64,000 bases of DNA, taken from positions 37,386 through 101,385 of the forward strand of contig DASZWJ010000019.1 in assembly GCA_035546635.1 (NCBI GenBank), given 5' to 3'. Of this stretch, positions 25,489 through 56,823 are shown piece after piece; within the stretch, counting starts at the first letter, position 1; each line of letters starts with the position of its first letter. Made by a program: the position numbers and the translations under genes. The stretch is from Gammaproteobacteria bacterium. Its GTDB lineage: Bacteria; Pseudomonadota; Gammaproteobacteria; JAURND01. The notes under the pieces were generated by a model. It saw nothing but the letters and a program-made list of their open reading frames with translations. It was not told where the DNA came from and made no database searches.

Positions 25489-27285
25489 ATGTATCAACTT
25501 TTAGATTTTGCCACTAAAAAACCAGTAACTCCACGCGGTTTAGTATTCACCGGCGAAGACTCTCCCTGGGAAGTAGTCATGGACATTGCTGCGATTAAAA
25601 AGCAGCTCAATCTGGATTACTTTAAAATCGCTCCACCAGGATTGTCGAAATATTTGCCTTTTATGCCGATTCAGCAAAGTGCTGAATTTATTTCTTTGCG
25701 TGAAACGGCCACGCCGCTTATAAAAAGTAAAACCATAGGTAAATTATTAGGTTTAGATTTATATTTCAAAGTTGAGGGAAAAAATACCACCGGTTCATTT
25801 AAAGATCGGGGCTCGGCGGTGGATATTTCTGTCGCGCGCGAATTTGGCGCAAGTAGTATTATTTTAGCTTCAACAGGTAATATGGCTGCTTCCTGCGCTT
25901 GTTATGCAGCCGCAGCAAAAATTCCATGCTTTATTTTGGTGCCAGAAGGTGTTGCGGTAGCCAAGTTGGCACAGGTGATTGCTTTTGGCGGACGTATTGT
26001 GCAAATCAAAGGTCATTATAATGACGCAGCACGTCTAGCGGAATCTCTTGCCGAAAAAATGGGATTTTATTTGGCGGGGGATTACGCTTATCGTGTTGAA
26101 GGACAAAAAACCGCCGCCTTTGAAATTATTGACCAATTATTTTTTCAGCCACCTGATCTGGTGGTCGTTCCCATTGGTTGTGGCACTAATATTACCGCCT
26201 ATAAAAAAGGCTTTAGTGAATATCGAGAGTTGGGTTTAATCGATAAAATACCACAATTGATGGGCGTAGAAGCTGAAGGTGCGGCGGCGGTGGTCAATAG
26301 TTTTGAAAAGCATGTCACGACTATTCAACCATTGGAAAGCGCTAATACCATTGCTACGGCTATCGCTGTGCCCAATCCTTTAGATGGCATAAAAGCTTTA
26401 GATGCGATTTATTCAACCGGTGGCAGTGCAGTGGCTGTTAGTGACCAGGAAATTTTACAAGCACAATATTTGTTATCAACTGAAGAAGGCTTGTTTGTTG
26501 AAAGTGCTGCTGCAGCTACCGTTGCCGCATTGCTTAAAGCGGGTCGCCAGCAAAAACTTGTTTCTGGCAAGGTAGTCTGCGTTTTAACTGGTGATGGGCT
26601 TAAAGATGCGAATGTGGTGTTAAAAGCCGCAATTAAACCGCCAACTATTTACCCGGATGAAAAAGCTTTTCTTTCGTTATATCAGAATAATTTCTTCAAA
26701 GGCAAGAGCATGATTTTTGTGGATAAAAATCAAGTGCTGTTTGCATCCGAACCGAGTATTTCCCAAATCAAAGAACAACTCGCTTTGCTGTTTGAGGCAG
26801 ATTATTCAGAAGAATATTTACTGAAAATTAAATCCATTCTTGGAAAATTTTTGCAAAAAGGTAAGGCGGTTACCGTTTCGGATTTTCAAGATTGCATACA
26901 AGATGCTTTAGAAACACCACAAAATAAACCGCAAGAAACCTTTGCGGTGGTAGATTTTGAAGTGACTACAGGCAAAGACCGTGCATCTGTAGCTTCGGTA
27001 ACGATAAAAATTGACGATAAAGAGCATAAAGCTACTGCTCAAGGGGTAGGTCCAGTAGATGCCGTGATTAGCGCTTTGACACATGCCTGTGCCGAAAGAA
27101 TTGTTTTTACTCTAACAGATTATAAAGTAGATATCCGCAGCCAAGGTGTTGATGCAGTGGTTTATGTGGAATTAAAGTTGGCCAAAGATCATTTTTATTC
27201 TTTGGGTCGAGGAACTTCACCGGATATTATTCAGGCTTCTATTGAGGCATTTGAAGAGGCGTATAATGGTTTTGTGGTAGCTTAA
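25489..27285 (+). CDS. threonine-synthase-like PLP enzyme fused to a C-terminal LeuA_dimer (IPMS/citramalate-synthase allosteric) domain
   Basis: Residues ~60-400 match short-type ThrC (GKNTTGSFKDRGSAV, RVEGQKTAAFEI, GCGTNITAY, TIATAIAV, TGDGLKD). Residues ~480-598 match the LeuA C-terminal regulatory domain (AQGVGPVDAV, SQGVDAVVYVEL, GRGTSPDIIQASIEAFEEAYN). An alternative start at 25579 (MDIAAIK, after GGGAAG) is possible. Confidence 0.85.
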   Translation: MYQLLDFATKKPVTPRGLVFTGEDSPWEVVMDIAAIKKQLNLDYFKIAPPGLSKYLPFMPIQQSAEFISLRETATPLIKSKTIGKLLGLDLYFKVEGKNTTGSFKDRGSAVDISVAREFGASSIILASTGNMAASCACYAAAAKIPCFILVPEGVAVAKLAQVIAFGGRIVQIKGHYNDAARLAESLAEKMGFYLAGDYAYRVEGQKTAAFEIIDQLFFQPPDLVVVPIGCGTNITAYKKGFSEYRELGLIDKIPQLMGVEAEGAAAVVNSFEKHVTTIQPLESANTIATAIAVPNPLDGIKALDAIYSTGGSAVAVSDQEILQAQYLLSTEEGLFVESAAAATVAALLKAGRQQKLVSGKVVCVLTGDGLKDANVVLKAAIKPPTIYPDEKAFLSLYQNNFFKGKSMIFVDKNQVLFASEPSISQIKEQLALLFEADYSEEYLLKIKSILGKFLQKGKAVTVSDFQDCIQDALETPQNKPQETFAVVDFEVTTGKDRASVASVTIKIDDKEHKATAQGVGPVDAVISALTHACAERIVFTLTDYKVDIRSQGVDAVVYVELKLAKDHFYSLGRGTSPDIIQASIEAFEEAYNGFVVA

Positions 27286-45076: not shown

Positions 45077-48000
45077 GTGTCTCATTGTGTCATGTCGAAT
45101 CCACCCCTTAAACTCAAATATGGTCAATTTCAGGATTTATTCAATCCTGAATGGTTAAAGCAACTCGATGCGAAATTCATCGAGCGTTTGCGTGCGCAAA
45201 ATCCCTTATTATACGAAGATTTATTAGCTTATCGGCATCAAAGCCGGCCGTTTGCGGCAACGGCGGTCAGTGCATTATTAATAGCTTGTGCTCCGCTATT
45301 AGAGGAGTTTATTGCCGAATTATTCAATATTGAACAGGAATTAGCCGCATCAGCACGTGCGACCTTATCACAGCAACCGATTTTTGCTTTTAAACACTGG
45401 TATGTGCAGCGCCAAGCGCGTCGTCGTTTATTAAAGCAGGAAGCGATTCCGGCTTTTGCAGAGCTGGACAATTGGTTGAGCGCTGAATTAAAAGCCCATG
45501 GCGAATCCGGTGATGATAGAGAGTTGGCAGTGGCTAAGCTGGGTGAGCATTATTTACAAAACCAGGAGCAGTTCGCTCAGCAAATAGAGCAGTTGACCTG
45601 CTGGTGTATACGGGCGTTGACTGACCCCCAAGGTAAAGCAGCTGTCAGAGGCTGGGTGAGTTTTCATTTACCGCAGAAACTCGACTATTACAGGTTAGTG
45701 CCTATGGAGCAAGTCGCAGACGATCCCGTCGGACGTATTCAAGGGAACCCCGCCCATTACCGCCAGCGTGACGGTTTTAAACTGACCGATTCTCGCATGA
45801 CGCCGCGTCAGGTATTAGATGAAATTGACTATTGTGTGTATTGCCATGAAAAAGACGGTGATTTTTGTTCTAAGGGTTTTCCCGTCAAAAAAGGCGAGCC
45901 GGAGAAGGGTTTTAAAATTAACCCTTTAGGTGAGGTGCAAACCGGTTGTCCATTAGAAGAAAAAATCTCTGAAATGCATGTATTAAAGAAGGATGGCTAT
46001 ACCGTAGCCGCATTGGCGATGATTATGGTCGATAATCCCATGTGTCCAGCCACGGGACATCGTATCTGTAATGACTGCATGAAGGGGTGCATTTATCAAA
46101 AGCAAGATCCAGTCAATATCCCGCAGACCGAGACCGGTATCTTAACGGATGTGTTGGCTTTACCCTGGGGGGTGGAAATTTATGATTTATTGACCCGCTG
46201 GAATCCCTTACGCCATGCCCAATGGGTGGCGCAACCCTATAATGGTCTAAAAGTTTTAGTGATGGGTATGGGGCCTGCTGGCTTTTCATTGGCGCATCAT
46301 TTATTGATGGCTGGGTGCGCGGTGGTGGGTGTTGATGGGCTTAAGATTGAACCCTTACCTGAAAAGTTAATTCATGAGCCAGTGTACCGTTTTACTGATA
46401 TCAAAGAGTCGCTCGATACGCGGGTGATGGCAGGTTTTGGTGGTGTGGCTGAATATGGTATTACTGTGCGTTGGGACAAAAATTTCTTGAAGCTGATTTA
46501 TATCAGTTTAAGACGCCGTCCCTATTTTCAAGTGTTTGGTGGTGTGCGTTTTGGTGGGACGTTAACGGTTGAAGATGCTTGGCAGCTGGGTTTCGATCAC
46601 ATGGCGATTGCGGTGGGTGCTGGCTTGCCTAAAGCTTTACCTGTGCCAGGTAGTATGGCGCCGGGAATGCGTCAGGCGAATGATTTTTTAATGGCGCTGC
46701 AATTGACTGGTGCCGCCAAGCAAAATAGTTTGGCTAATCTGCAGGTGAGGTTGCCGGCGGTCATTATTGGTGGTGGTTTAACTGGGGTAGATACCGCAAC
46801 TGAAGTTCAGGCTTATTATATTTCTCAGGTAGAAAAAACTCTGGCGCGTTATGAGAAATTAACCGCTATTTTAGGCGCTGCTCGTTTGCGGGAACAGTTT
46901 GACGATCACAGCTTTGAGATACTTGATGAATTTATTAATCACGGTCGACAGGTACGTCAAGAACGTGAGGCGGCAGCGCGTGCTAATCGAGCTCCCGATT
47001 TTATCAGCTTAATTCGTGCCTGGGGTGGGGTTACGATTGCTTATAGACGTCTGTTACGTGAGTCACCGGCCTATATCCGCAATCATGAAGAAGTGATTAA
47101 GGCTTTTGAGGAAGGGATTTACTATGCAGAAGGTTTAACGCCCAAAGTGGTGCGCTTGGATCAATATGGTCATGTAGATGCTCTGGTGAGTGAGTCGCGC
47201 ATTTACGATGAACAAGGGCAATGGGTGGTGTCCGATGAGGAGCATATTCTGCCGGCACGATCAATTTTTGTTGCAACCGGAGCTAAGCCCAATATTGCTT
47301 ATGAGTTTGAACATCGCGGCACTTTTCATCGTGAGGGTACTGAATACCAGGCTTATGATGTCAATGGTCAGCAGGAGGTAATCCATCCTGAAGGGCATTG
47401 CAAGACAGCTGAATTTGGGGCTTTTACCAGTTATCATAAAGCAGGTCGTCGCGTCACATTTTTAGGTGATACCCACCCAGTATTCCATGGGAGTGTCGTC
47501 AAGGCCATTGCTTCAGCCAAGCGCACTTATCCGAAAATATTGCATGTGCTGGGAGCGGGAGTCACAGCAGTTGGTGATGTGCGTGAATATCATAGTTTTG
47601 CTGAAAAAATAAACTATCAATTTTCTAGTTCTGTGCAAAAAATTATCCGCCATACGCCAAGTGTGGTGGAATTACAAGTACATGCGCCTTTGGCTGTGCG
47701 TAATTTTTTACCAGGTCATTTTTATCGCATACAAAATTTTGAGACTTTCGCAGCACAAAGTGGAGATACTTTGCTGCAGACGGAGGCGATTGCAGTGATT
47801 GGGACACGTGTTGATAAAGCCCAAGGCACTTTGTCGCTGATGGTCATTGAACAAGGCGCGAGTTCTCGGATATTTGCCACGCTTAAGCCAGGACAGCCGA
47901 TGGCGGTGATGGGACCAACGGGGGTACGCACCAAGATTCCGCAGGATCAAGAAACAGTGCTCATCGTGGGGGGGCGTTTAAGTGCTGCGCAGATGTTGGT

Positions 48001-48625: not shown

Positions 48626-50193
48626 TGCAGTCAAGAGAACAAATAATGAGTCAAAGTAAAAGCCTATTCCGCTCCACCACTATGGTTTCTGGAATTACTT
48701 CCATTTCACGCATTTTAGGATTTTTGCGCGATATGTTGATTGCGCAATTGTTTGGTGCGGTGCCGGCGATCGATGCTTTTTACGTGGCTTTTCGGATACC
48801 GAATTTCATGCGCGGTCTATTTGCTGAAGGTGCGTTCGCACAAGCGTTTGTGCCAGTTTTGTCGGAGTACCGTCAGCAACGCAGCTTTGAAGAAGTGCGT
48901 CAGTTTATTAGTCGCATGCAGGGTAGTTTAGGTTTAGTGTTACTGTTAGTGGTCATGCTGGCTGTGATTTTTACTCCCTGGTTAACGCGCATATTTGCAC
49001 CGGGTTTTGTGCATGATCCCAATCGCTTTCACTTAGCGACGCACATGTTGCGTATCACCTTTCCCTATTTAATGTTGATCTCTTTAACGGCTTTTTATGG
49101 TTCAGTATTAAATAGCTATGGCATGTTTGGCGTACCAGCATTTACCCCGGTGTTATTAAACTTGGTTATGATTATTGCTGCAGTGTGGATGGCGCCGCAT
49201 TTTCATGAGCCGGTAGTTGCTTTGGCTGTAGGCGTATTGATTGCTGGGATAATGCAGTTTTTATTTCAACTGCCTTTTCTAAAATACCGTGGCTTATTTG
49301 TTTGGCCGACCCTCCACTGGCATGATGAAGGGGTAAGAAGGGTGATTAAACTGTTAATTCCTGCGCTGTTTGGGGTTTCTGTGGCGCAGATTAGCTTATT
49401 GGTCGATACCTTATTTGCTTCTTTTTTACCGGCTGGTAGCATCACCTGGTTGTATTATTCAGATCGTTTAACTTATTTTCCTTTAGGTATTTTTGGTGTG
49501 GCTTTAGCGACGGTGGTATTGCCACATTTGTCTCGTAATCATGCAGATAAATCCGCCCAAGAATTTTCTATCGTGTTAGATTGGGCATTACGTTGTGTAC
49601 TGGTCATAGCCATCCCGGCAGGGATAGGCCTGTTTATGTTAGCAAAACCGCTATTTACTACCTTATTTCAGTATGGTCGCTTTAATCCATATGATGTGTT
49701 TATGGCCGGCCGGAGTCTCCGTGCTTATGCATTTGGATTGCCGGCATTTATGTTGGTTAAAGTATTGGCGTCTGGATTTTATTCACAACAGGATATAAAA
49801 ACCCCAGTGCGCGTTGCGGTAATTGCTTTGATAGCGAATATGCTGCTTAACTTTATTTTGATATGGCCTTTGGCACATGCAGGATTGGCATTGGCAACTT
49901 CATTATCTTCAAGTTTGAATGCCGGGCTTTTAGCTTGGTATTTAATCAGACGTAAAGCGTTTCAATTGCAAAAGGGTTGGGGCGTTTATTTATTGCGGCT
50001 ATTTATAGCTAGTTTCGTCACTTGGGCTGTATTGACTTGGTTAACCCCGCAGTTAGGTGTCTGGATACATTGGAGTTGGCATCAAAGAGTGCTCTATCTA
50101 TTGTTTTTAATTTTTGCATCGATGGCTGCGTATTTTATTACTTTAAGAGTGGTGGGTGTGCGCTTAAGAGATTTTCGTGTGGTGACGAAATAA
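48625..50193 (+). CDS. murJ: lipid II flippase MurJ (MviN)
   Basis: 14 TM helices and MurJ N-terminal motif (GITSISRILGFLRDMLIAQLFGA). TAATG overlap with the upstream gene. Confidence 0.9.
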   Translation: MQSREQIMSQSKSLFRSTTMVSGITSISRILGFLRDMLIAQLFGAVPAIDAFYVAFRIPNFMRGLFAEGAFAQAFVPVLSEYRQQRSFEEVRQFISRMQGSLGLVLLLVVMLAVIFTPWLTRIFAPGFVHDPNRFHLATHMLRITFPYLMLISLTAFYGSVLNSYGMFGVPAFTPVLLNLVMIIAAVWMAPHFHEPVVALAVGVLIAGIMQFLFQLPFLKYRGLFVWPTLHWHDEGVRRVIKLLIPALFGVSVAQISLLVDTLFASFLPAGSITWLYYSDRLTYFPLGIFGVALATVVLPHLSRNHADKSAQEFSIVLDWALRCVLVIAIPAGIGLFMLAKPLFTTLFQYGRFNPYDVFMAGRSLRAYAFGLPAFMLVKVLASGFYSQQDIKTPVRVAVIALIANMLLNFILIWPLAHAGLALATSLSSSLNAGLLAWYLIRRKAFQLQKGWGVYLLRLFIASFVTWAVLTWLTPQLGVWIHWSWHQRVLYLLFLIFASMAAYFITLRVVGVRLRDFRVVTK

Positions 50194-50239: not shown

Positions 50240-51169
50240 TTGTTGAAACTTATTCGTGGGATCTACAACCTGCCTGAAACTTTTCCGCGTTGTGTCCTTA
50301 CCATAGGCAATTTTGATGGTGTACATATCGGCCATCAACAACTTCTAAAACAGCTGCAGCAAAAAGCCCGCGAGATGGGGTTGCCTACCTTGGTAATCAC
50401 CTTTGAGCCGCAACCGAATGAGTTTTTTAAGCCACAAGATGCTCCACCCCGTCTAATGCGATTACATGAAAAAATAAGAGTGTTGAATACTTTAGGCGTC
50501 GATTATGTATTATGTCTGCGTTTTGATCCCTTATTGGCGCGCCTTTCTGCTGAGGATTTTGTGCATACCTTGCTCATCGATAAATTAAATGCTGCTTATG
50601 TGTTAGTAGGGGATGATTTTCATTTTGGTTATAAACGTGGTGGTGATATCAGATTATTAAAACAGATGGGTGAGCGTTTAGGTTTTTTAGCTGAGCAAAT
50701 GCCTACGTATGTCTTCAAGGGAGAGCGGGTTAGTAGTTCACGTGTGCGTCAAGCCTTGGAACAGGGAAGGCTTGATGTAGCACAGCAATTATTAAACCGC
50801 CATTATGGGATTTCCGGTAAAGTAGCGCATGGTGACAAACGTGGACGTATGCTCGGCTTCCCTACGGCTAATGTATTTTTGCATCGCAAGGCTGTGTCAC
50901 TTTCTGGGATTTATGCGGTCATAACCCATGGTGTTTTGCCACATCCAGTTAAAGGCGTTGCTTATGTTGGCAATCGTCCCACCATCGATGGGGGTGGTCG
51001 GAGTTTGCTTGAAGTACATTTGTTCGATTTTAACCAGGAAATTTATGGGCGGCATATTTATGTGGAGTTTTTGCATAAATTACGAGACGATAAAAAATTT
51101 GATTCGGTGGAATTAATGCAACAGCAGATTTTAATAGATGCAAAACAGGCTCGGGAGTATTTCGGATGA
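50240..51169 (+). CDS. ribF: bifunctional riboflavin kinase / FMN adenylyltransferase
   Basis: FAD-synthetase motif (TIGNFDGVHIGHQ) and riboflavin-kinase C-terminal motif (GFPTANV). TTG start. Confidence 0.9.
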   Translation: MLKLIRGIYNLPETFPRCVLTIGNFDGVHIGHQQLLKQLQQKAREMGLPTLVITFEPQPNEFFKPQDAPPRLMRLHEKIRVLNTLGVDYVLCLRFDPLLARLSAEDFVHTLLIDKLNAAYVLVGDDFHFGYKRGGDIRLLKQMGERLGFLAEQMPTYVFKGERVSSSRVRQALEQGRLDVAQQLLNRHYGISGKVAHGDKRGRMLGFPTANVFLHRKAVSLSGIYAVITHGVLPHPVKGVAYVGNRPTIDGGGRSLLEVHLFDFNQEIYGRHIYVEFLHKLRDDKKFDSVELMQQQILIDAKQAREYFG

Positions 51170-52122
51170 AAGGTGTTTCAGATAAAACTAAGGCTGCCAT
51201 TTGTTTAACTTTTTGTGTTGTTTCATGGGCATCCGCTTTTGTGGGTATTCGCATAGGGCTTAAAGGATATAGTCCTGGCAGTGTGGCTTTACTGCGTTAT
51301 TTAATTGCATCAATGGGTATGTTGTTTTTATATTTGTTTTTTTCTAAACGCGATAAGCCAGCTTTAAAAGATATGCCGCTGATTTTTTTTACCGGTGTCG
51401 TTGGGTTTGGAATTTATAACATCGCGTTAAACTATGGTGAAATAACCGTCTCTTCTGGCATAACAGGGTTTATTATCAGTCAGATGCCGGTTATCGTCAC
51501 ATTATTAGCACCGTTGTTATTGAAAGAAAAAATTGCTAAAAGTGCTTGGGTTGGATTAGGGGTGAGTGTGGTTGGCGTGGGTTTAATTGCCATTGCACAT
51601 CGAGGCGATGGCAGCGGAAGCAGTTTGCAGGGTAATCTGGATCTTGGCATTTGGTATTTAATCATCGCAGTTTTTTGCGGTGCTATTTATGCGGTGTGCA
51701 ATAAAATTCTAACACCTAAATATCATCCCATTGAATTGACCGCCTATACTATGTGGAGCGGTACTTTCATATTGTTATTCTATACACCCACGTTATGGAC
51801 AGAGGTTAAAACAGTGTCTATGAGTGCTACGTTGGCATGTGTTTATTTAGGTGCATTTCCTGGGTTTATTGGCTATTTAGCTTGGAGTTATGCGCTAAGG
51901 TATATGCCAGCTTCGCGCGCTTCAAATTATTTATTCTTGATGCCACTGGTGGCGACTGGTTTGGGGTGGTTGTTATTGGGTGAGGTGCCTAAATTATTGG
52001 CACTTTGTGGTGGTGTTGTGGCTTTGGTGGGAGCAATCATTGCAACCCAATACAAGGGTAAAGGATATAAAAAAACGCAAGATATGAATTATATTTTAAA
52101 CAGGCAAGCACCCCATGAATGA
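51166..52122 (+). CDS. DMT-superfamily (EamA-like) transporter
   Basis: 10 TM segments with two EamA repeats. ATGA-coupled to ribF and overlaps thrA by 8 nt. Confidence 0.75.
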   Translation: MKGVSDKTKAAICLTFCVVSWASAFVGIRIGLKGYSPGSVALLRYLIASMGMLFLYLFFSKRDKPALKDMPLIFFTGVVGFGIYNIALNYGEITVSSGITGFIISQMPVIVTLLAPLLLKEKIAKSAWVGLGVSVVGVGLIAIAHRGDGSGSSLQGNLDLGIWYLIIAVFCGAIYAVCNKILTPKYHPIELTAYTMWSGTFILLFYTPTLWTEVKTVSMSATLACVYLGAFPGFIGYLAWSYALRYMPASRASNYLFLMPLVATGLGWLLLGEVPKLLALCGGVVALVGAIIATQYKGKGYKKTQDMNYILNRQAPHE

Positions 52123-54574
52123 AATCTCCAATCCCATAGAAGTCCATAAATTTGGTGGCAGTAGTTTAGCAACGGCAGCGCATTTTCGTGCTGTGCAAAA
52201 TATTGTGCGCGGCAATCGAACGGCTATTGTTGTATCCGCAAGCGCCGGTATCACTAATCAATTGCAGGCATTGTTAAATTTGGCCTGCCAGCAGCAGGCA
52301 TATCACGAAAAATTAGCGGACATAAAACAGTTTCAACACGACATCATCCAGCATTTGCTCGATGCTGACCCACAATGCCAAGAGATGGTGAGTATAATCA
52401 ACAGTGACTGCGACGCGATAGCAAACCTCTTGCGTACCACGCAACTACTAGGCAGCTATAATACGCAAGTGCAAGATAAGGTATTGGGTTATGGCGAGTT
52501 ATGGTCAGCACAAATCCTGGCAGCATTATTAAACCGTGAAGCCGCTACGTTATTTATCGATGCATCTAAAATATTAATTACTTATCGCAAACACAAGCAA
52601 CAATATATTGACTGGGAGCATAGTCAGCAGCTGCTAGATCCATTATTGCAGTCTGCAGATTTTCAACATTTAGTGATTACTGGATTTATCGCCACTAATG
52701 CAGAACACCAGTTTGTTACCTTAGGGCGCAATGGTAGTGATTATTCTGCAGCTATATTTGCGCGTCTATTGCATGCAGAAAAGCTGATTATCTGGACTGA
52801 TGTCGATGGAATTTACAGTGCAGATCCTAATAAAGTTCGTTCTGCATTTCCTTTGCCGGAACTCTCGTATGAAGAAGCTTTAGAGCTTGCTTATTTTGGT
52901 GCGAAAGTGATTCATCCGCAGACCATATTTCCAGCTATCAATAATAATATTCCCATTTATGTAAAACACAGTGGAAACCCTTTAGCACCTGGAACTAAAA
53001 TCTCAGCAAAATGCCAGACTACTGACTATTTAGTAAAAGGTTTAAGCTGTATTGATGATGTCGCTTTGATCAATATAGAAGGCTCAGGCATGGTTGGGGT
53101 TTCAGGTACGGCAACTCGCGTGTTTCAAGTGTTATACCAGGGAGGCATTTCAGTTATTCTGATTTCTCAGGCTAGTTCTGAACATTCTATTTGCTTTGCA
53201 GTTAAGCAAGATCAGGCGAATCAGGCACAGGAGTTTCTGCAGGAACAGTTTCAGTTTGAAATTGGCCAGCAATTAATTAAAGGGATTACTATCGATAAAA
53301 ATTGTTCAGTTTTAGCGGTAGTTGGCGATGGTATGGTCGGTCACCAGGGGGTGGCAGGTAAATTATTCAATACGCTGACCAAGGCGAATGTCAATATCAA
53401 AGCGGTAGCGCAAGGATCATCAGAGCGCAATATCTCTGTTGTAGTGGAACGTCTCGATATTTATAAAGCGCTACGTGCGGTGCATTCCGGTTTTTATTTG
53501 TCGAGCAAAACATTATCTATTGGTTTAATTGGTCCAGGTCAGGTTGGAGCGACGTTATTGCAGCAAATAGCTGATACCGCCCCCCAGTTACAGCACAAGC
53601 GTAAAGTTAATTTACAGGTGCGCGGTATTATCGATTCTAAAAAAATGTTATTGGCGGATAGCAATATTGATCTGAAGCAATGGCAATCACAACGTGATAG
53701 TGTAGCCACAACCGCGAATATGGAAGATTTTATCAATCATATTGCTGCGGATGATATGCCGCATGCGGTCATTATCGATTGCACAGCGAGCGCAAAGATT
53801 GCTGATCTCTATCCGCATTTTATTGCTCGCGGCCTACATATTATTACTCCTAATAAGCGTGCTAACTCAGGAAATTTTAGTTTTTATCAGGAATTGCATG
53901 CTTTTGCGCAACAAAAAAATCGTTTTTATTTATATGAGACAACGGTTTGTGCGGGTTTGCCGGTTATTAAAACCTTGCAAGATATTGTTGCTACTGGTGA
54001 TGAAGTATTGAGTATTCAAGGAGTAGTGTCGGGGACACTCAGTTATATATTTAGTCAGCTTGGCATGGGACAAAAATTTTCCTCCATCGTACGTGAAGCT
54101 AAGCGGCAGGGTTATACGGAACCTGATCCGCGTGATGACTTATCTGGAATGGATGTGGCGCGCAAATTTGTGTGTTTGGCGCGGGAGTTGGGGCATAACT
54201 CGACTTTAGAAAGCTTGTCTATTACTAGCCTGGTTCCTGCGCCATTGCAACAGGTGAGTGCTGAAGAATTCTTGGAGCGTCTGCCTGAGTTTGATGAGCA
54301 AATACATGCATCATTGGAGCCTATGTTAGCGCGGGGAGAAAAGCCGCATTATGTGGGTACCATAGATGCTAATGGTAGTATTCATATTGCAATTGCAGGA
54401 TTTGGTCAAAATCATCCGTTTAGCCGTTTGCAGGGCACTGATAATATGCTGATTTTTACGACACGGCGTTATCAACCACAGTCTTTGGTGATACAAGGTC
54501 CAGGTGCCGGTACTGAGGTGACGGCAGCGGGGATTTTTGCGGATTTACTGCGATTGGTTACGGCTTTAGATTAA
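52115..54574 (+). CDS. thrA: bifunctional aspartate kinase / homoserine dehydrogenase
   Basis: N-terminal aspartokinase (KFGGSSLA), two ACT domains and C-terminal HSDH (GLIGPGQVGATLL). Confidence 0.95.
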   Translation: MNEISNPIEVHKFGGSSLATAAHFRAVQNIVRGNRTAIVVSASAGITNQLQALLNLACQQQAYHEKLADIKQFQHDIIQHLLDADPQCQEMVSIINSDCDAIANLLRTTQLLGSYNTQVQDKVLGYGELWSAQILAALLNREAATLFIDASKILITYRKHKQQYIDWEHSQQLLDPLLQSADFQHLVITGFIATNAEHQFVTLGRNGSDYSAAIFARLLHAEKLIIWTDVDGIYSADPNKVRSAFPLPELSYEEALELAYFGAKVIHPQTIFPAINNNIPIYVKHSGNPLAPGTKISAKCQTTDYLVKGLSCIDDVALINIEGSGMVGVSGTATRVFQVLYQGGISVILISQASSEHSICFAVKQDQANQAQEFLQEQFQFEIGQQLIKGITIDKNCSVLAVVGDGMVGHQGVAGKLFNTLTKANVNIKAVAQGSSERNISVVVERLDIYKALRAVHSGFYLSSKTLSIGLIGPGQVGATLLQQIADTAPQLQHKRKVNLQVRGIIDSKKMLLADSNIDLKQWQSQRDSVATTANMEDFINHIAADDMPHAVIIDCTASAKIADLYPHFIARGLHIITPNKRANSGNFSFYQELHAFAQQKNRFYLYETTVCAGLPVIKTLQDIVATGDEVLSIQGVVSGTLSYIFSQLGMGQKFSSIVREAKRQGYTEPDPRDDLSGMDVARKFVCLARELGHNSTLESLSITSLVPAPLQQVSAEEFLERLPEFDEQIHASLEPMLARGEKPHYVGTIDANGSIHIAIAGFGQNHPFSRLQGTDNMLIFTTRRYQPQSLVIQGPGAGTEVTAAGIFADLLRLVTALD

Positions 54575-54584
54575 GAGAATAAAT

Positions 54585-55514
54585 ATGCATGATTTACAAA
54601 CTGTCACTGCCTATGCGCCTGCAACTTGCGGCAATGTGATTGTTGGTTTTGATATTTTAGGGTTAGCTATCTCAAATGTTGGTGACAAAGTCACATTGAC
54701 GCGTCGTCAAGATAGCGCTTTAGTCATTACACATATTTCTGGCATAGATTCTCTACCGACTGATCCCAAGCAAAATATTGCTTCAGCGGTGATAGCGCAG
54801 TTATTGGCCGATCTCAATCTCAATTGGGGCTTTGATATTGAGTTACATAAAGGGATTCCTTTAAGCTCAGGTTTGGGTGGTTCTGCGGCATCGGCAGCCG
54901 CTGCATTGATGGCTTTGAATCAGTTTTTGCCTACACCGTTATCACTCACGCAGTTGGCGCATTATGCTATGTTGGGAGAAGCTTTATGCAGCGGTCAGGC
55001 ACACCCTGATAATATTGTGCCGGCATTGTATGGTGGTATTACGTTAATTACAGAGCAGAATCCGATTCAGGTCGTGTCGCTGCCTATTCCTGATATTGTT
55101 TGTGTGTTAGTGCATCCGCATTTGGAATTAACCACGCGCAAAGCACGTAGTATTTTAGCTGCTAGCGTACCGTTGCATGCCCATTGTGTGCAATCTGCTT
55201 ATCTCGCTGGTTTTATTAGTGCGCTCTATCAAAAGGATTTAAACTTAATAGCACAATCCTTGCGAGACGTCATCATAGAACCGCAACGTGAGCAATTAGT
55301 ACCTGGTTTTTCTGCTGTTAAAAAGGCGGCATTGGCGAAAGGAGCATTAGGTGCGTCTTTATCAGGTTCAGGTCCAACCGTGTTGGCGTTTGCGCGTGAC
55401 GCAATGCAAGCAGAACAAGTAGGACTAGCTATGCAGGCGGCATTTGCTAAATGTGGTATTACTAGTAATATATATTTATCGCCGATAAGTCAGCAGGGGG
55501 CGTATGTGATGTGA
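54585..55514 (+). CDS. thrB: homoserine kinase
   Basis: GHMP kinase motif (PLSSGLGGSAASAAAA). Confidence 0.9.
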   Translation: MHDLQTVTAYAPATCGNVIVGFDILGLAISNVGDKVTLTRRQDSALVITHISGIDSLPTDPKQNIASAVIAQLLADLNLNWGFDIELHKGIPLSSGLGGSAASAAAALMALNQFLPTPLSLTQLAHYAMLGEALCSGQAHPDNIVPALYGGITLITEQNPIQVVSLPIPDIVCVLVHPHLELTTRKARSILAASVPLHAHCVQSAYLAGFISALYQKDLNLIAQSLRDVIIEPQREQLVPGFSAVKKAALAKGALGASLSGSGPTVLAFARDAMQAEQVGLAMQAAFAKCGITSNIYLSPISQQGAYVM

Positions 55515-55548
55515 TTAAATTCATATAAAGAAATAAGGAGCAAGTTTC

Positions 55549-56823
55549 ATGCAATTTCATAGCACTGAAAATCAACAACCCCACTATGATTTTATATCAG
55601 CCGTGTTAAGTGGATTAGCAAAAGATGGTGGGTTATATGTCCCTGATGCATTTCCAAAACTCCAGCTTGATACATTTTCTCTATCTTCCTACCCTGAGTT
55701 TGCCAGCCAATTATTAAAACATTTTATAAGCGCACCACTGCAAAATGATTTGCAAGTCATGTGTCAACAAGCTTTTAACTTTGCAGTACCTAATACGCAA
55801 ATAAACGCAAATACCTGGATGTTAGAATTATTTCATGGGCCGACTTTATCATTTAAAGATTTTGGTGCCCGTTTTCTAGCCCAATGTATGGCGCGTATTC
55901 CTACAAATAAACCATTAACAATTTTAGTCGCCACTTCCGGTGATACCGGTTCTGCAGTTGCCAGTGCATTTTTTCAACAGCATCCAACACGAGTCATTGT
56001 ACTTTTTCCACGTGGAAAAATTTCTTTAAGACAACAGCAACAAATCACTTGCTGGCAGGACAATATATTGGCGGTTGCTGTGGAGGGTGCATTTGATGAT
56101 TGTCAACGTATAGTTAAAACAGCATTTAGCGATTCGAGCTGGCAAAGTAAATATCAGCTGAGTACTGCCAACAGCATTAACATCGCCCGTCTTTTGCCAC
56201 AAATTGTTTATTATGCCTATACCAGTTTACAGTTTCAGCAGCAAAAGGGTCAGAGTGTAGGTTTTATTGTGCCATCAGGCAATTTGGGCAATGTCACGGC
56301 AGCCTATTGGGCGAAACAGCTTGGATTTCCACTGCGTGAAATTGTGATTGCAACTAATGCTAATCGCCCGCTCACACATTATCTGGAAACAGGTAAATAC
56401 CAACCTTTCCCGACGCAAGCTACGCTTGCTAATGCAATGGATGTGGGTAATCCCAGTAATTTTGCGCGATTAAAGGATTTATTCCCAGACTTTACTGATT
56501 TTAAATCTCAGGTGCACGCAATACGTGTTGATGATGAGGGAATTAAACAGGCAATTACTCAGGCTTATCAAAAAGAACAAGTGCTGATCTGTCCGCATAC
56601 CGCAACTGCCTATTATGCACGTCAGCAGTTGAATGATAAACCGTGGATTATTGTAGCAACGGCTCATCCATGCAAATTTGAAAATGTGATTGAACCCATT
56701 ATTAGCAAACCGTTACCACCTGCGCCAGAGCTGATGGCGTTATTGAAACGTCAGCAGAAATTTGAAACGATCCTTCCTGAGTTGTCGGCATTAACTAAAG
56801 TGGCCGATAAATATTTTTCATAA
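55549..56823 (+). CDS. thrC: threonine synthase (long type)
   Basis: FHGPTLSFKDFGARFLAQ (compare E. coli FAFKDFGGRFMAQ). 424 aa. Confidence 0.9.
   Translation: MQFHSTENQQPHYDFISAVLSGLAKDGGLYVPDAFPKLQLDTFSLSSYPEFASQLLKHFISAPLQNDLQVMCQQAFNFAVPNTQINANTWMLELFHGPTLSFKDFGARFLAQCMARIPTNKPLTILVATSGDTGSAVASAFFQQHPTRVIVLFPRGKISLRQQQQITCWQDNILAVAVEGAFDDCQRIVKTAFSDSSWQSKYQLSTANSINIARLLPQIVYYAYTSLQFQQQKGQSVGFIVPSGNLGNVTAAYWAKQLGFPLREIVIATNANRPLTHYLETGKYQPFPTQATLANAMDVGNPSNFARLKDLFPDFTDFKSQVHAIRVDDEGIKQAITQAYQKEQVLICPHTATAYYARQQLNDKPWIIVATAHPCKFENVIEPIISKPLPPAPELMALLKRQQKFETILPELSALTKVADKYFS

What the first reader, a model, noticed from the sequence alone, without database searches (positions are those of the whole stretch)
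45077..50193. Giant multidomain flavo-Fe-S oxidoreductase translationally coupled to the lipid II flippase gene murJ
The 1182-aa protein has an unassigned ~250-aa N-terminal domain and a GltD/NfnB-like Cys-cluster plus FAD/NAD(P) module. Its C-terminus is a PyrK/NfnA-like FNR-[2Fe-2S] module. It resembles a single-chain Nfn/SudAB-type NAD(P)H:acceptor oxidoreductase. Its stop overlaps the murJ start (TAATG). Co-expressing a redox enzyme with the peptidoglycan flippase is unexpected. The acceptor and physiological role are unknown.
Basis: partly seen in the sequence, partly recalled or inferred. Interest (0 to 1): 0.6.

Follow-up and report, generated by a model that had tools for sequence, protein, structure and literature searches.

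The report
Orphan Nfn-like oxidoreductase beside murJ
The large gene is a real, highly conserved iron-sulfur flavoprotein of a widespread family whose function is untested (Rickettsia RP005 / Coxiella CBU_0586 type), and its position next to the cell-wall flippase gene murJ is a gene order found only in one small group of relatives, so it gives no sign of a functional link.

Summary
The ORF is real. Its conserved start is ATG 45092, giving 1177 aa. The AF2 model is confident (pLDDT 89.6, pTM 0.91). Its best PDB matches are the two Nfn subunits (TM 0.80 and 0.88).

The protein belongs to a known, named, uncharacterised family: NCBIfam PRK06567, Rickettsia RP005, Coxiella CBU_0586. The family occurs in at least ~600 species, including Rickettsiales, Wolbachia, Legionellales, Acidithiobacillus, Nitrosomonas and Acidobacteria.

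It does not carry the literal Nfn signature motifs. Its [2Fe-2S] cluster has four Cys ligands, not Asp+3Cys, and ERxPxT is absent.

The TAATG overlap exists, but relatives place the murJ start 21 nt downstream. The order big gene–murJ–ribF is kept in 7 of 7 close relatives (72–85% identity), with gaps from −4 to ~258 nt. It is absent from all 80 other species loci, 62 of which have enough downstream sequence to show it. No neighbour is conserved family-wide.

Best reading: a stand-alone NAD(P)H-linked electron-transfer enzyme, probably reducing a ferredoxin-type acceptor, that lies next to murJ–ribF by lineage-specific gene order.

The parts
45092..48625 (+). CDS of the 1177-aa RP005/PRK06567-family iron-sulfur flavoprotein. 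The mechanical ORF starts at GTG 45077; the conserved start is ATG 45092.
   Evidence: P0001 100% identical, 1177 aa; relatives start MxNPxLxLK
45092..45811 (+). N-terminal all-alpha domain, residues 1-240 (Pfam PF27156 RP005_N). It has ten helices, and no Cys or His is conserved across the family. It is followed by the conserved R-x-G-F-x-L-T-D segment (residues 226-233).
   Evidence: precomputed Pfam; conserved columns; pLDDT 90.3; no PDB fold match, best E 2.8; no match in local Pfam
45812..46156 (+). Two-[4Fe-4S]-type domain, residues 241-355: C248-x2-C251-x7-C259-x26-C286-P and C318-x7-C326-x2-C329-x3-C333. Seven Cys are invariant. C318 is V or L in part of the alphaproteobacterial clade.
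   Evidence: (Fer4_20, weak)
46157..47626 (+). GltD/NfnB-like module, residues 356-845. It has an FAD Rossmann motif (GMGPAG, residues 392-397, with D415) and an NADPH Rossmann motif (GGGLTGVD, residues 560-567, followed by Y651-R652-R653).
   Evidence: 5jca_L TM 0.80; 4ylf_B 0.79; GltD 6s6s_E 0.76
46805..47017 (+). Family-specific ~70-aa helical hairpin inserted in the NADPH-binding domain (residues 572-642), between the GGGxxGxD strand-helix and the YRR strand.
   Evidence: the alignment to NfnI-L skips 570-645; helices 563-594 and 605-630
47627..48361 (+). NfnA/PyrK-like FNR module, residues 846-1090. The flavin strand reads TEAIAVI where Nfn has ERxPxT. GASSR is kept. The nucleotide loop reads GGRLSAA where Nfn and the alphaproteobacterial clade have GGGxGxA.
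   Evidence: (5jca_S TM 0.88, rmsd 2.6)
48362..48622 (+). [2Fe-2S] motif C1098-x5-C1104-x2-C1107-x18-C1126 (all four Cys invariant), followed by a C-terminal helix.
48621..48648 (+). Junction between the two genes: stop TAA 48623-48625, overlapping ATG 48625-48627, and the conserved-position murJ start ATG 48646-48648, preceded by AAGAGA.
48646..50193 (+). murJ, the lipid II flippase gene. The alternative upstream start is at 48625.
   Evidence: (MurJ 477 bits; TIGR01695 479 bits)
50240..51169 (+). ribF, encoding FAD synthetase/riboflavin kinase. It travels with murJ in all seven close relatives.
41383..41574 (-). A 63-aa CBU_0585-family gene. In relatives it is the divergent upstream neighbour of the big gene; here a 3.5-kb insertion separates the two.
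40072..41167 (.). fdxA (7Fe-type ferredoxin, 40072-40407, minus strand) and a monothiol glutaredoxin gene (40814-41167, plus strand). This upstream block recurs next to the big gene in several Legionellales-type relatives.

Best explanation
The gene encodes a soluble, stand-alone member of the RP005/PRK06567 family. It is a single polypeptide made of an NfnB/GltD-like module (two [4Fe-4S], FAD, NADPH site) and an NfnA/PyrK-like module (FNR fold, [2Fe-2S]), preceded by a family-specific all-alpha domain.

Shown: the fold, the cofactor-binding motifs, the family membership and the phyletic spread.

Inferred: NADPH reduces the GltD-like FAD. Electrons then leave through the iron-sulfur chain to a diffusible one-electron acceptor, most likely a ferredoxin such as the nearby FdxA. 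A second path runs through the [2Fe-2S]/FNR module. On this reading the enzyme is an NAD(P)H:ferredoxin-type oxidoreductase built like Nfn, not necessarily bifurcating, and the N-terminal domain is a docking or structural platform.

Its position in front of murJ-ribF is a gene order specific to one small Legionellales-like lineage. It probably leads to co-transcription there, but it does not reflect a shared function.
For: Family and architecture:
- NCBIfam PRK06567, 612 bits over residues 26-991.
- Pfam RP005_N plus Pyr_redox_2 on the identical protein.
- Full-length collinear alignment at 41-46% identity with Rickettsiales, Wolbachia and Mesenet proteins.
- CBU_0586 peptides match the query.

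Structure:
- AF2 model with pLDDT 89.6 and pTM 0.91.
- Best PDB folds are NfnI-L, Xfn and NfnB (TM 0.79-0.80) and NfnI-S and NfnA (TM 0.83-0.88), ahead of GltD and DPD.
- The best PDB sequence matches are also the Nfn subunits.

Cofactor sites:
- Invariant GxGPAG, GGGLT(G/A)xD and YR(R/K) motifs, seven or eight Cys for two [4Fe-4S], and four Cys for [2Fe-2S].

Stand-alone status:
- No neighbour is shared by more than 5 of 80 loci.

Not a GOGAT subunit:
- Ehrlichia has the protein but lacks GOGAT (PMC4251998).

Ferredoxin hint:
- fdxA and/or grx4(-bolA) lie beside the gene in the window, L082, L084, L085, L035 and L032, and fdxA lies near it in Acidithiobacillus L019.

murJ adjacency is incidental:
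- 0 of 80 loci have murJ or ribF, and 62 of them are informative. The positive controls are detected.
- Gaps in the close clade range from -4 to ~258 nt.
- Unrelated downstream genes are equally tightly packed.
Against: - No activity of any family member has been reported, so donor and acceptor are inferred from homology alone.
- The score lies below NCBI's equivalog cut-off (612 against 1072).
- In the query's clade the FNR module lacks the Arg, Pro and Thr of the ERxPxT flavin strand, and its nucleotide loop reads GGRLSAA. The second flavin or NAD site may therefore be altered or unused.
- The ferredoxin adjacency appears in few lineages, most of them related to each other.
- Within the close clade the murJ adjacency is 7 of 7, and five of those gaps are 20 nt or less. 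Co-expression in that clade is real, so a local functional link cannot be formally excluded.
- The N-terminal domain has no known fold relative. Its proposed docking role is a guess.
Confidence: 0.6

Rival explanations
1. It is a true single-chain, flavin-based electron-bifurcating Nfn transhydrogenase (2 NADPH + NAD+ + oxidised ferredoxin <-> 2 NADP+ + NADH + reduced ferredoxin). In aerobes it would work to generate low-potential reduced ferredoxin or to balance the NADH and NADPH pools.
For: - Both Nfn subunits are the best sequence and fold matches.
- The cofactor complement is the same, and the NADPH Rossmann and YRR motifs are conserved.
- Fused Nfn homologues with the NfnB-NfnA order are described as 'Pattern C' (PMC6405883).
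Against: - The Nfn signature motifs listed in PMC6405883 are not met. The [2Fe-2S] has Cys1098 where Nfn has the Asp ligand that gives its +80 mV potential. ERxPxT is replaced by TEAIAVI. The proximal-cluster motif GRVCPQExQC, with its Glu ligand, is replaced by C318-x7-C-N-D-C.
- The NAD loop is degenerate in the query's clade.
- The family is not in that review's list of Nfn homologues.
- An extra 240-aa domain and a 70-aa insertion are present.
Confidence: 0.17
2. The N-terminal domain is the catalytic end. Electrons from NAD(P)H pass through the [4Fe-4S] pair to a small-molecule substrate, such as a quinone or another metabolite, bound by the RP005_N domain and the conserved RxGFxLTD segment. 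This would resemble DPD or glutamate synthase, where the GltD-like module feeds a catalytic domain.
For: - The N-terminal domain directly precedes the Fe-S domain and is conserved across Alpha- and Gammaproteobacteria and Acidobacteria, with invariant F29, L202, R226, F229 and T232 and several near-invariant charged residues.
- It folds confidently and defines the family.
- In the homologous systems DPD and GltS, the GltD-like module does feed a catalytic domain (one search shows the fold relationship).
Against: - No conserved Cys or His and no recognisable cofactor motif lies in residues 1-240.
- It has no fold relative.
- This reading leaves the NfnA-like module unexplained.
Confidence: 0.13
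3. The enzyme is functionally coupled to MurJ and cell-wall synthesis. For example, it might provide redox control of lipid II flipping, expressed from one translationally coupled operon.
For: - The order big gene-murJ-ribF is kept in 7 of 7 close relatives, with gaps of 20 nt or less in five of them.
- There is no terminator between the genes in the window.
Against: - It is absent from all 80 other species loci, 62 of them informative, including relatives at 72% identity.
- Gaps reach ~200 and ~258 nt in L081 and L086.
- The conserved murJ start is not the overlapping ATG.
- The family is present in Rickettsiales, Coxiella and Acidobacteria without this linkage.
- Equally tight spacing joins the unrelated genes ribF, eamA and thrA.
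Confidence: 0.04
4. [quoted passage not shown] That is, it would be a partner of GltB, a glutaminase as assumed in the Ehrlichia and Neorickettsia papers, or a ubiquinone-biosynthesis hydroxylase.
For: - The name of NCBIfam PRK06567.
- GltD is a fold relative (6s6s_E, TM 0.76).
- The Ehrlichia and Neorickettsia papers use the protein as a glutamine-to-glutamate enzyme.
Against: - There is no glutaminase or GltB-type domain.
- E. chaffeensis has the protein but lacks GOGAT.
- No gltB lies nearby in any of the 80 loci.
- The Nfn subunits match better than GltD.
- The 'hydroxylase' label comes from the old COG name for PyrK/Fre-like FNR proteins (my own knowledge). No monooxygenase domain is present.
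Confidence: 0.04

Closest known systems
RP005 / PRK06567 family (Rickettsia prowazekii RP005, Ehrlichia ECH_0778, Coxiella burnetii CBU_0586; Pfam RP005_N + Pyr_redox_2)
   Same: The architecture is collinear from the N-terminal RP005_N domain to the C-terminal [2Fe-2S] motif. Identity to Rickettsiales and Wolbachia members is 41-46%. The invariant Cys and Rossmann motifs are the same.
   Different: - The score is below NCBI's equivalog cut-off (612 against 1072 bits).
- The query's gammaproteobacterial clade differs from the alphaproteobacterial clade in the FNR module (GGRLSAA against GGGLGNA; TEAxA against MEGLALT) and keeps C318.
- The family itself has no tested function.
[quoted passage not shown]
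   Same: These are the best sequence and fold matches for both modules (TM 0.79-0.80 and 0.83-0.88). The set of predicted cofactors is the same: 2 FAD, 2 [4Fe-4S] and 1 [2Fe-2S]. The NADPH site has conserved Arg residues.
   Different: - It is one chain in the order NfnB-like then NfnA-like.
- It has an extra 240-aa N-terminal domain and a 70-aa insertion.
- The [2Fe-2S] cluster is all-Cys rather than Asp(Cys)3.
- The ERxPxT and GRVCPQExQC motifs are absent.
- Cys spacing differs in the first cluster motif.
- Its hosts are mostly aerobes, whereas Nfn is typical of anaerobes.
'Pattern C' fused Nfn homologues (e.g. Mobiluncus curtisii; NCBIfam PRK12779-type, ~940 aa)
   Same: It has the same module order, with the a-FAD/NAD/[2Fe-2S] part at the C-terminus. 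These proteins are also uncharacterised (PMC6405883).
   Different: The match to PRK12779 is only weak and partial (86 bits). The query is ~230 aa longer and has the RP005_N domain. Rickettsia, Legionella and Coxiella proteins are not in that review's list.
Glutamate synthase small subunit GltD and dihydropyrimidine dehydrogenase (N-terminal half)
   Same: The central fold is shared: two [4Fe-4S] plus FAD plus NADPH (6s6s_E TM 0.76; DPD hits).
   Different: There is no GltB or DPD catalytic (FMN/TIM-barrel) partner domain or neighbouring gene. An NfnA-like module takes that place.

Membership tests
RP005 / PRK06567 family | N-terminal RP005_N domain (Pfam PF27156) | tested here: met
   The precomputed Pfam annotation of the 100%-identical protein P0001, and of all 240 listed relatives, shows PF27156. 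The local Pfam copy lacks this model.
RP005 / PRK06567 family | Full-length collinearity with Rickettsiales members (RP005_N, Fe-S, GltD-like and PyrK-like parts in that order) | tested here: met
   In alignment A3 the query is 41-46% identical over its whole length to Rickettsiales, Wolbachia and Mesenet proteins. NF005128 matches residues 26-991 to profile positions 16-925 of 1031.
RP005 / PRK06567 family | Score at or above NCBIfam's equivalog cut-off (1072 bits) | tested here: not met
   The score is 612.6 bits. The query belongs to a divergent gammaproteobacterial branch, which NCBI names only 'FAD-dependent oxidoreductase'.
NfnAB (electron-bifurcating transhydrogenase) | NfnB-type module: two [4Fe-4S], FAD, and an NADPH site with two Arg | tested here: met
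   Foldseek TM is 0.79-0.80 to 5jca_L and 4ylf_B. GxGPAG, GGGLTGxD and Y651-R652-R653 are conserved. Seven Cys are invariant and C318 is the eighth.
NfnAB (electron-bifurcating transhydrogenase) | NfnB cluster motifs RCx2Cx4Cx3CPV and GRVCPQExQCx3C, with a Glu ligand on the proximal cluster (PMC6405883) | tested here: not met
   The query has C248-x2-C-x7-C-x26-CP and C318-x7-C326-N-D-C329-x3-C333. There is no PQE.
NfnAB (electron-bifurcating transhydrogenase) | NfnA [2Fe-2S] motif DGTGMCGxCRx10CV with an Asp ligand | tested here: not met
   The query has PMQC1098-MLKGV-C1104-AQ-C1107-x18-C1126. A Cys sits at the Asp position, and all four Cys are invariant in 75 sequences.
NfnAB (electron-bifurcating transhydrogenase) | NfnA flavin strand ERxPxT, in which the Thr contacts flavin N5 | tested here: not met
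   The query reads T-E-A-I-A-V-I, so only the Glu is kept. The alphaproteobacterial clade reads MEGLALT, keeping Glu and Thr.
NfnAB (electron-bifurcating transhydrogenase) | NADH- and ferredoxin-dependent NADP+ reduction (bifurcating activity) | not testable with these tools
   This needs purified enzyme.
Glutamate synthase small subunit (GltD) | Works with a GltB large subunit, usually encoded by an adjacent gene | tested here: not met
   No GltB-like neighbour occurs in the window or in any of the 80 loci. Ehrlichia carries the family but lacks GOGAT. TIGR01317/01318 scores of 25-40 bits lie far below their cut-offs.
   Adjacency holds in 7 of 7 members of the close clade only. It is absent in 0 of 80 other species loci, 62 of them informative, and the positive controls are detected.

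The most novel reading that the evidence does not exclude
The RP005 family may be the missing housekeeping source of low-potential electrons in many aerobic and obligately intracellular bacteria, including Rickettsiales, Wolbachia, Coxiella, Legionella, nitrifiers, Acidithiobacillus and Acidobacteria. On this reading it is an oxygen-tolerant, single-chain Nfn derivative that uses NADPH, possibly by flavin-based bifurcation with NAD+ as co-acceptor, to reduce FdxA- or ISC-type ferredoxins. Those ferredoxins would then serve Fe-S assembly and radical-SAM or other ferredoxin-dependent enzymes. The new N-terminal domain would be the ferredoxin dock.
Probability: 0.2. Interest if true: 0.7.

Novelty: new member of a known kind. 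Interest (0 to 1): 0.3.

Why it matters
As a finding about this window it is ordinary. It is a further member of a family that already has NCBIfam and Pfam models, sitting next to murJ by local gene order.

The family itself is worth noting. It is about 1150 aa long and very strongly conserved (over 50% mean column identity between Gamma- and Alphaproteobacteria). It is retained in the reduced genomes of Rickettsia, Wolbachia, Ehrlichia and Coxiella. It is built like the anaerobes' bifurcating Nfn, yet it is found mainly in aerobes, and it has never been assayed.

Current papers treat it as a glutamine-to-glutamate enzyme on the strength of its name alone, which the domain content does not support. 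Knowing its donor and acceptor would fill a gap in the redox maps of several pathogens.

Tried and rejected
- Conserved neighbours. I clustered all ORFs of at least 90 aa from the 80 loci. Nothing is shared by more than 5 loci, so context gives no family-wide clue.
- murJ and ribF by tblastn in the 80 loci. There were no hits, and the positive controls were fine.
- Local Pfam and NCBIfam searches on the N-terminal domain gave nothing.
- Literature searches for PRK06567, RP005, ECH_0778, CBU_0586, lpg058x and fused Nfn in Rickettsiales found only annotation-level mentions.
- An Rfam scan of the window found only one tRNA, with no riboswitch upstream of the gene. The promoter and terminator scan was uninformative.
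- Rejected: the second 1172-aa ORF in the window (10785-14303) as a paralogue. It is an ankyrin-repeat protein.

Full report
**Observation.** A 1182-codon ORF runs from 45077 to 48625 on the + strand and is followed at once by a 522-codon ORF, 48625-50193. The database holds a 100%-identical 1177-aa protein (P0001, 'FAD-dependent oxidoreductase', from a gammaproteobacterial MAG). All relatives begin at the position of ATG 45092 (MSNPPLKLK...), so that is the likely start. The downstream ORF is murJ (Pfam MurJ 477 bits; TIGR01695 479 bits).

The sequence acaTAATGcag is present. However, in six close relatives the MurJ protein begins M/V-S-K-S-L-F-R-S-T-T. That corresponds to the second ATG of the window, at 48646 (MSQSKSLFRSTT). 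The more probable arrangement is a 20-nt spacer with a weak AAGAGA Shine-Dalgarno-like element, not a stop/start overlap. No terminator-like hairpin lies between the genes, so co-transcription is likely either way.

**Anatomy.** Pfam finds Pyr_redox_2 (residues 392-609) and a sub-threshold Fer4_20 match (287-353). [quoted passage not shown] It scores 612.6 bits over residues 26-991, below the equivalog cut-off of 1072. Much weaker matches go to the fused or split Nfn/GltD/PyrK models. The precomputed annotation of the identical protein and of every listed homologue carries PF27156, RP005_N, for the N-terminal region. The local Pfam copy lacks that model.

Profile search of PDB sequences gives the two subunits of Pyrococcus NfnI as best hits: 5jca_S for residues 849-1016 and 5jca_L for 306-734. 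T. maritima NfnAB follows.

An AlphaFold2 model built on 75 diverse family members is confident (mean pLDDT 89.6, pTM 0.91). Foldseek against PDB ranks NfnI-L, Xfn and NfnB first (TM 0.79-0.80 on the target). NfnI-S and NfnA score 0.88 and 0.83 (rmsd 2.6-2.8 Å). All of these are ahead of GltD (0.76) and DPD.

The conserved columns fit the predicted cofactors:
- GMGPAG...D415 for the FAD site.
- GGGLTGVD plus Y651-R652-R653 for the NADPH site.
- C248/C251/C259/C286 and C318/C326/C329/C333 for two [4Fe-4S] clusters. Seven are invariant, and C318 is V or L in part of the alphaproteobacterial clade.
- C1098/C1104/C1107/C1126 for [2Fe-2S], all invariant.

Two features are specific to the family. 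The first is a ~70-aa helical hairpin inserted in the NADPH domain at residues 572-642. The second is the N-terminal domain, residues 1-240. It has ten helices, folds confidently on its own (pLDDT 90.3), has no family-wide conserved Cys or His, and has no significant structural neighbour in PDB (best E 2.8, TM below 0.26).

**Family and distribution.**
- Full-length homologues at 59-85% identity fill the first 120 hits.
- An exhaustive search of 50%-identity representatives finds 861 clusters at E of 1e-30 or better, and most of the 150 best hits listed match nearly the full length of the query; the rest are shorter.
- Hosts include Legionellaceae, Coxiellaceae, Acidithiobacillus, Ectothiorhodospiraceae, Methylococcaceae, Nitrosomonas, Sulfuriferula, Alphaproteobacteria, Acidobacteria (Pyrinomonas, Bryobacterales, Vicinamibacterales), Nitrospirota and Myxococcales.
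- A second search seeded with distant members recovers Rickettsiales, Wolbachia and 'Candidatus Mesenet' proteins that align end to end with the query at 41-46% identity.
- Peptides listed for Coxiella burnetii CBU_0586 match the query. One (RSIFVATGAKPNIAY) is identical, and two others (HPVFHGSVVKAIASA, VQAYYIAQVEKTARR) are nearly so. CBU_0586 is therefore a member.

The literature held here mentions the family only by its annotation. Driscoll et al. note PRK06567 as a 'GltD-UbiB chimera' in nearly all Rickettsiales (PMC3641634). Two Anaplasmataceae papers assume it converts glutamine to glutamate (PMC4251998, PMC5481527). The protein has no glutaminase or GltB-type domain, and E. chaffeensis is stated to lack GOGAT. 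No functional study was found.

**The murJ link.**
- In six further members of the closest clade (72-85% identity: L081-L086) the order big gene-murJ-ribF is kept.
- The distances from the stop to the conserved MurJ start are about 200, 4, -4, 1, 12 and about 258 nt, against 20 nt in the window.
- In L081 the spacer holds a GC-rich hairpin element.
- Outside this clade the linkage disappears. None of the 80 species loci has a MurJ or RibF match anywhere within ±6 kb, although 62 of them have at least 1.5 kb downstream. The same search detects MurJ and RibF in all seven positive controls. The 80 include L001 and L002, which are as similar to the query (72%) as L086 is.
- murJ and ribF always travel together, so the simplest history is that the oxidoreductase gene came to lie upstream of a murJ-ribF pair in one lineage.
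- Tight packing is not special to this junction. ribF/eamA and eamA/thrA, which are functionally unrelated, overlap by 4 and 8 nt in the same co-directional array.

Across the family no gene of at least 90 aa is a recurrent neighbour; the maximum is 5 of 80 loci. This fits an enzyme that works alone with diffusible partners.

**Other context.** A search for small ORFs showed that a ~60-aa CBU_0585-family gene (NF041950, 70.9 bits) lies divergently just upstream of the big gene in L001, L002, L005 (Legionellaceae), L035 (Coxiellaceae), L082 and L084-L086. C. burnetii has the same pair as CBU_0585/CBU_0586. This neighbour is therefore more widely conserved than murJ.

In the window the small gene is at 41383-41574 (-). 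It is separated from the big gene by a 3.5-kb insertion. The insertion is made of two ~0.9-kb direct repeats (87-90% identical), each encoding a fused nucleotidyltransferase-HEPN protein, around a PIN/MazE-type toxin-antitoxin pair.

Further upstream lie a monothiol glutaredoxin gene and fdxA. The same fdxA-(bolA)-grx block flanks the gene in L082, L084 (bolA-grx only), L085 and L035. A glutaredoxin is also upstream in L032, and an fdxA lies 2.5 kb away in Acidithiobacillus L019. This hints at a ferredoxin or Fe-S connection, but most cases share ancestry, so it counts for little.

**How it probably works.**
- Shown: the fold and the motifs for NADPH, two flavin-type domains, two [4Fe-4S] and one [2Fe-2S].
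- Inferred by homology with Nfn, GltD and DPD: NADPH reduces the FAD of the GltD-like module. From there one path leads over the two [4Fe-4S] clusters to the protein surface, and another leads over the [2Fe-2S] to the FNR-like module.
- Because there is no catalytic partner domain or gene, the acceptor is most likely a diffusible one-electron carrier such as ferredoxin. The N-terminal domain, which directly precedes the Fe-S domain, may form the docking surface.

Whether the enzyme bifurcates like Nfn is doubtful. The signature motifs listed for Nfn in PMC6405883 are not matched.
- The Asp ligand that gives the Nfn [2Fe-2S] its +80 mV potential is a Cys here.
- The flavin strand ERxPxT reads TEAIAVI.
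- The proximal-cluster motif with its Glu ligand is replaced by a Cys-based one.
- The nucleotide loop of the FNR module is GGRLSAA in the query's clade, against GGGLGNA in the Rickettsiales clade.
- That review's list of Nfn homologues does not include Rickettsia, Legionella or Coxiella proteins. Its 'Pattern C' fusions share the module order but correspond to a different, shorter family. The query scores only 86 bits against PRK12779.

**Verdict.** The architectural interpretation is supported. The proposed significance of the murJ coupling is not. The gene is a new member of a known but uncharacterised family, so the finding is of low to moderate interest for this window. The open question of what the RP005 family does in aerobes and obligate intracellular bacteria remains a reasonable target for biochemistry.

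Noticed in passing
window 41383-41574 (-); also L001, L002, L005, L035, L082, L084-L086 just upstream of the big gene: A ~60-aa CBU_0585-family gene (NF041950) is the divergent upstream neighbour of the big oxidoreductase gene across Legionellales- and Coxiellaceae-type genomes (CBU_0585/CBU_0586 in C. burnetii). It is conserved more widely than the murJ adjacency. Its function is unknown, and it was once listed as a Legionella/Coxiella effector candidate (PMC3486869).
   Followed up: partly
window 41815-44691: A 3.5-kb insertion splits the CBU_0585-family gene from the big gene. It consists of two ~0.9-kb direct repeats (87-90% identical), each encoding a fused nucleotidyltransferase+HEPN protein (41821-42702 and 43816-44691, both on the minus strand). 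These flank a PIN toxin gene (42862-43248) and a MazE/AbrB-type antitoxin gene (43235-43486).
   Followed up: partly
window 40072-41167: fdxA (7Fe-type ferredoxin with DUF3470, minus strand) and a monothiol glutaredoxin gene lie upstream. The same fdxA-(bolA)-grx block sits next to the big gene in L082, L085 and L035, and bolA-grx in L084. This is a possible hint at the electron acceptor, but the cases are phylogenetically non-independent.
   Followed up: partly
window 46805-47017 (residues 572-642 of the protein): A ~70-aa helical hairpin, specific to the family, is inserted into the NADPH-binding Rossmann domain. It is absent from NfnB and GltD.
   Followed up: no
L081 9657-9857: In the closest relative (85% identity) the spacer between the big gene and murJ is ~200 nt and holds a GC-rich inverted repeat (tcccctctcccc...gggagagga), possibly a REP-like element or a terminator.
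   Followed up: no
window 10785-14303 (-): A 1172-aa protein with ankyrin repeats, of the kind seen in eukaryote-targeting effectors. This is consistent with a host-associated Legionellales-like organism. By coincidence it is nearly the same length as the oxidoreductase, but the two are unrelated.
   Followed up: partly
window 25489-27285 (+): A 598-aa protein that combines a PLP-dependent (PALP, threonine-dehydratase-like) domain with a LeuA allosteric/dimerisation domain. It lies inside a branched-chain amino-acid gene cluster.
   Followed up: no
window 39852-39923 (+): A single tRNA gene, the only Rfam match in the window. Spurious ORFs overlap it on both strands.
   Followed up: no
window 50240-56823: A co-directional array, ribF-eamA-thrA-thrB-thrC, has 4-nt and 8-nt overlaps between functionally unrelated genes. 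This shows that tight spacing in this genome is not evidence of shared function.
   Followed up: yes
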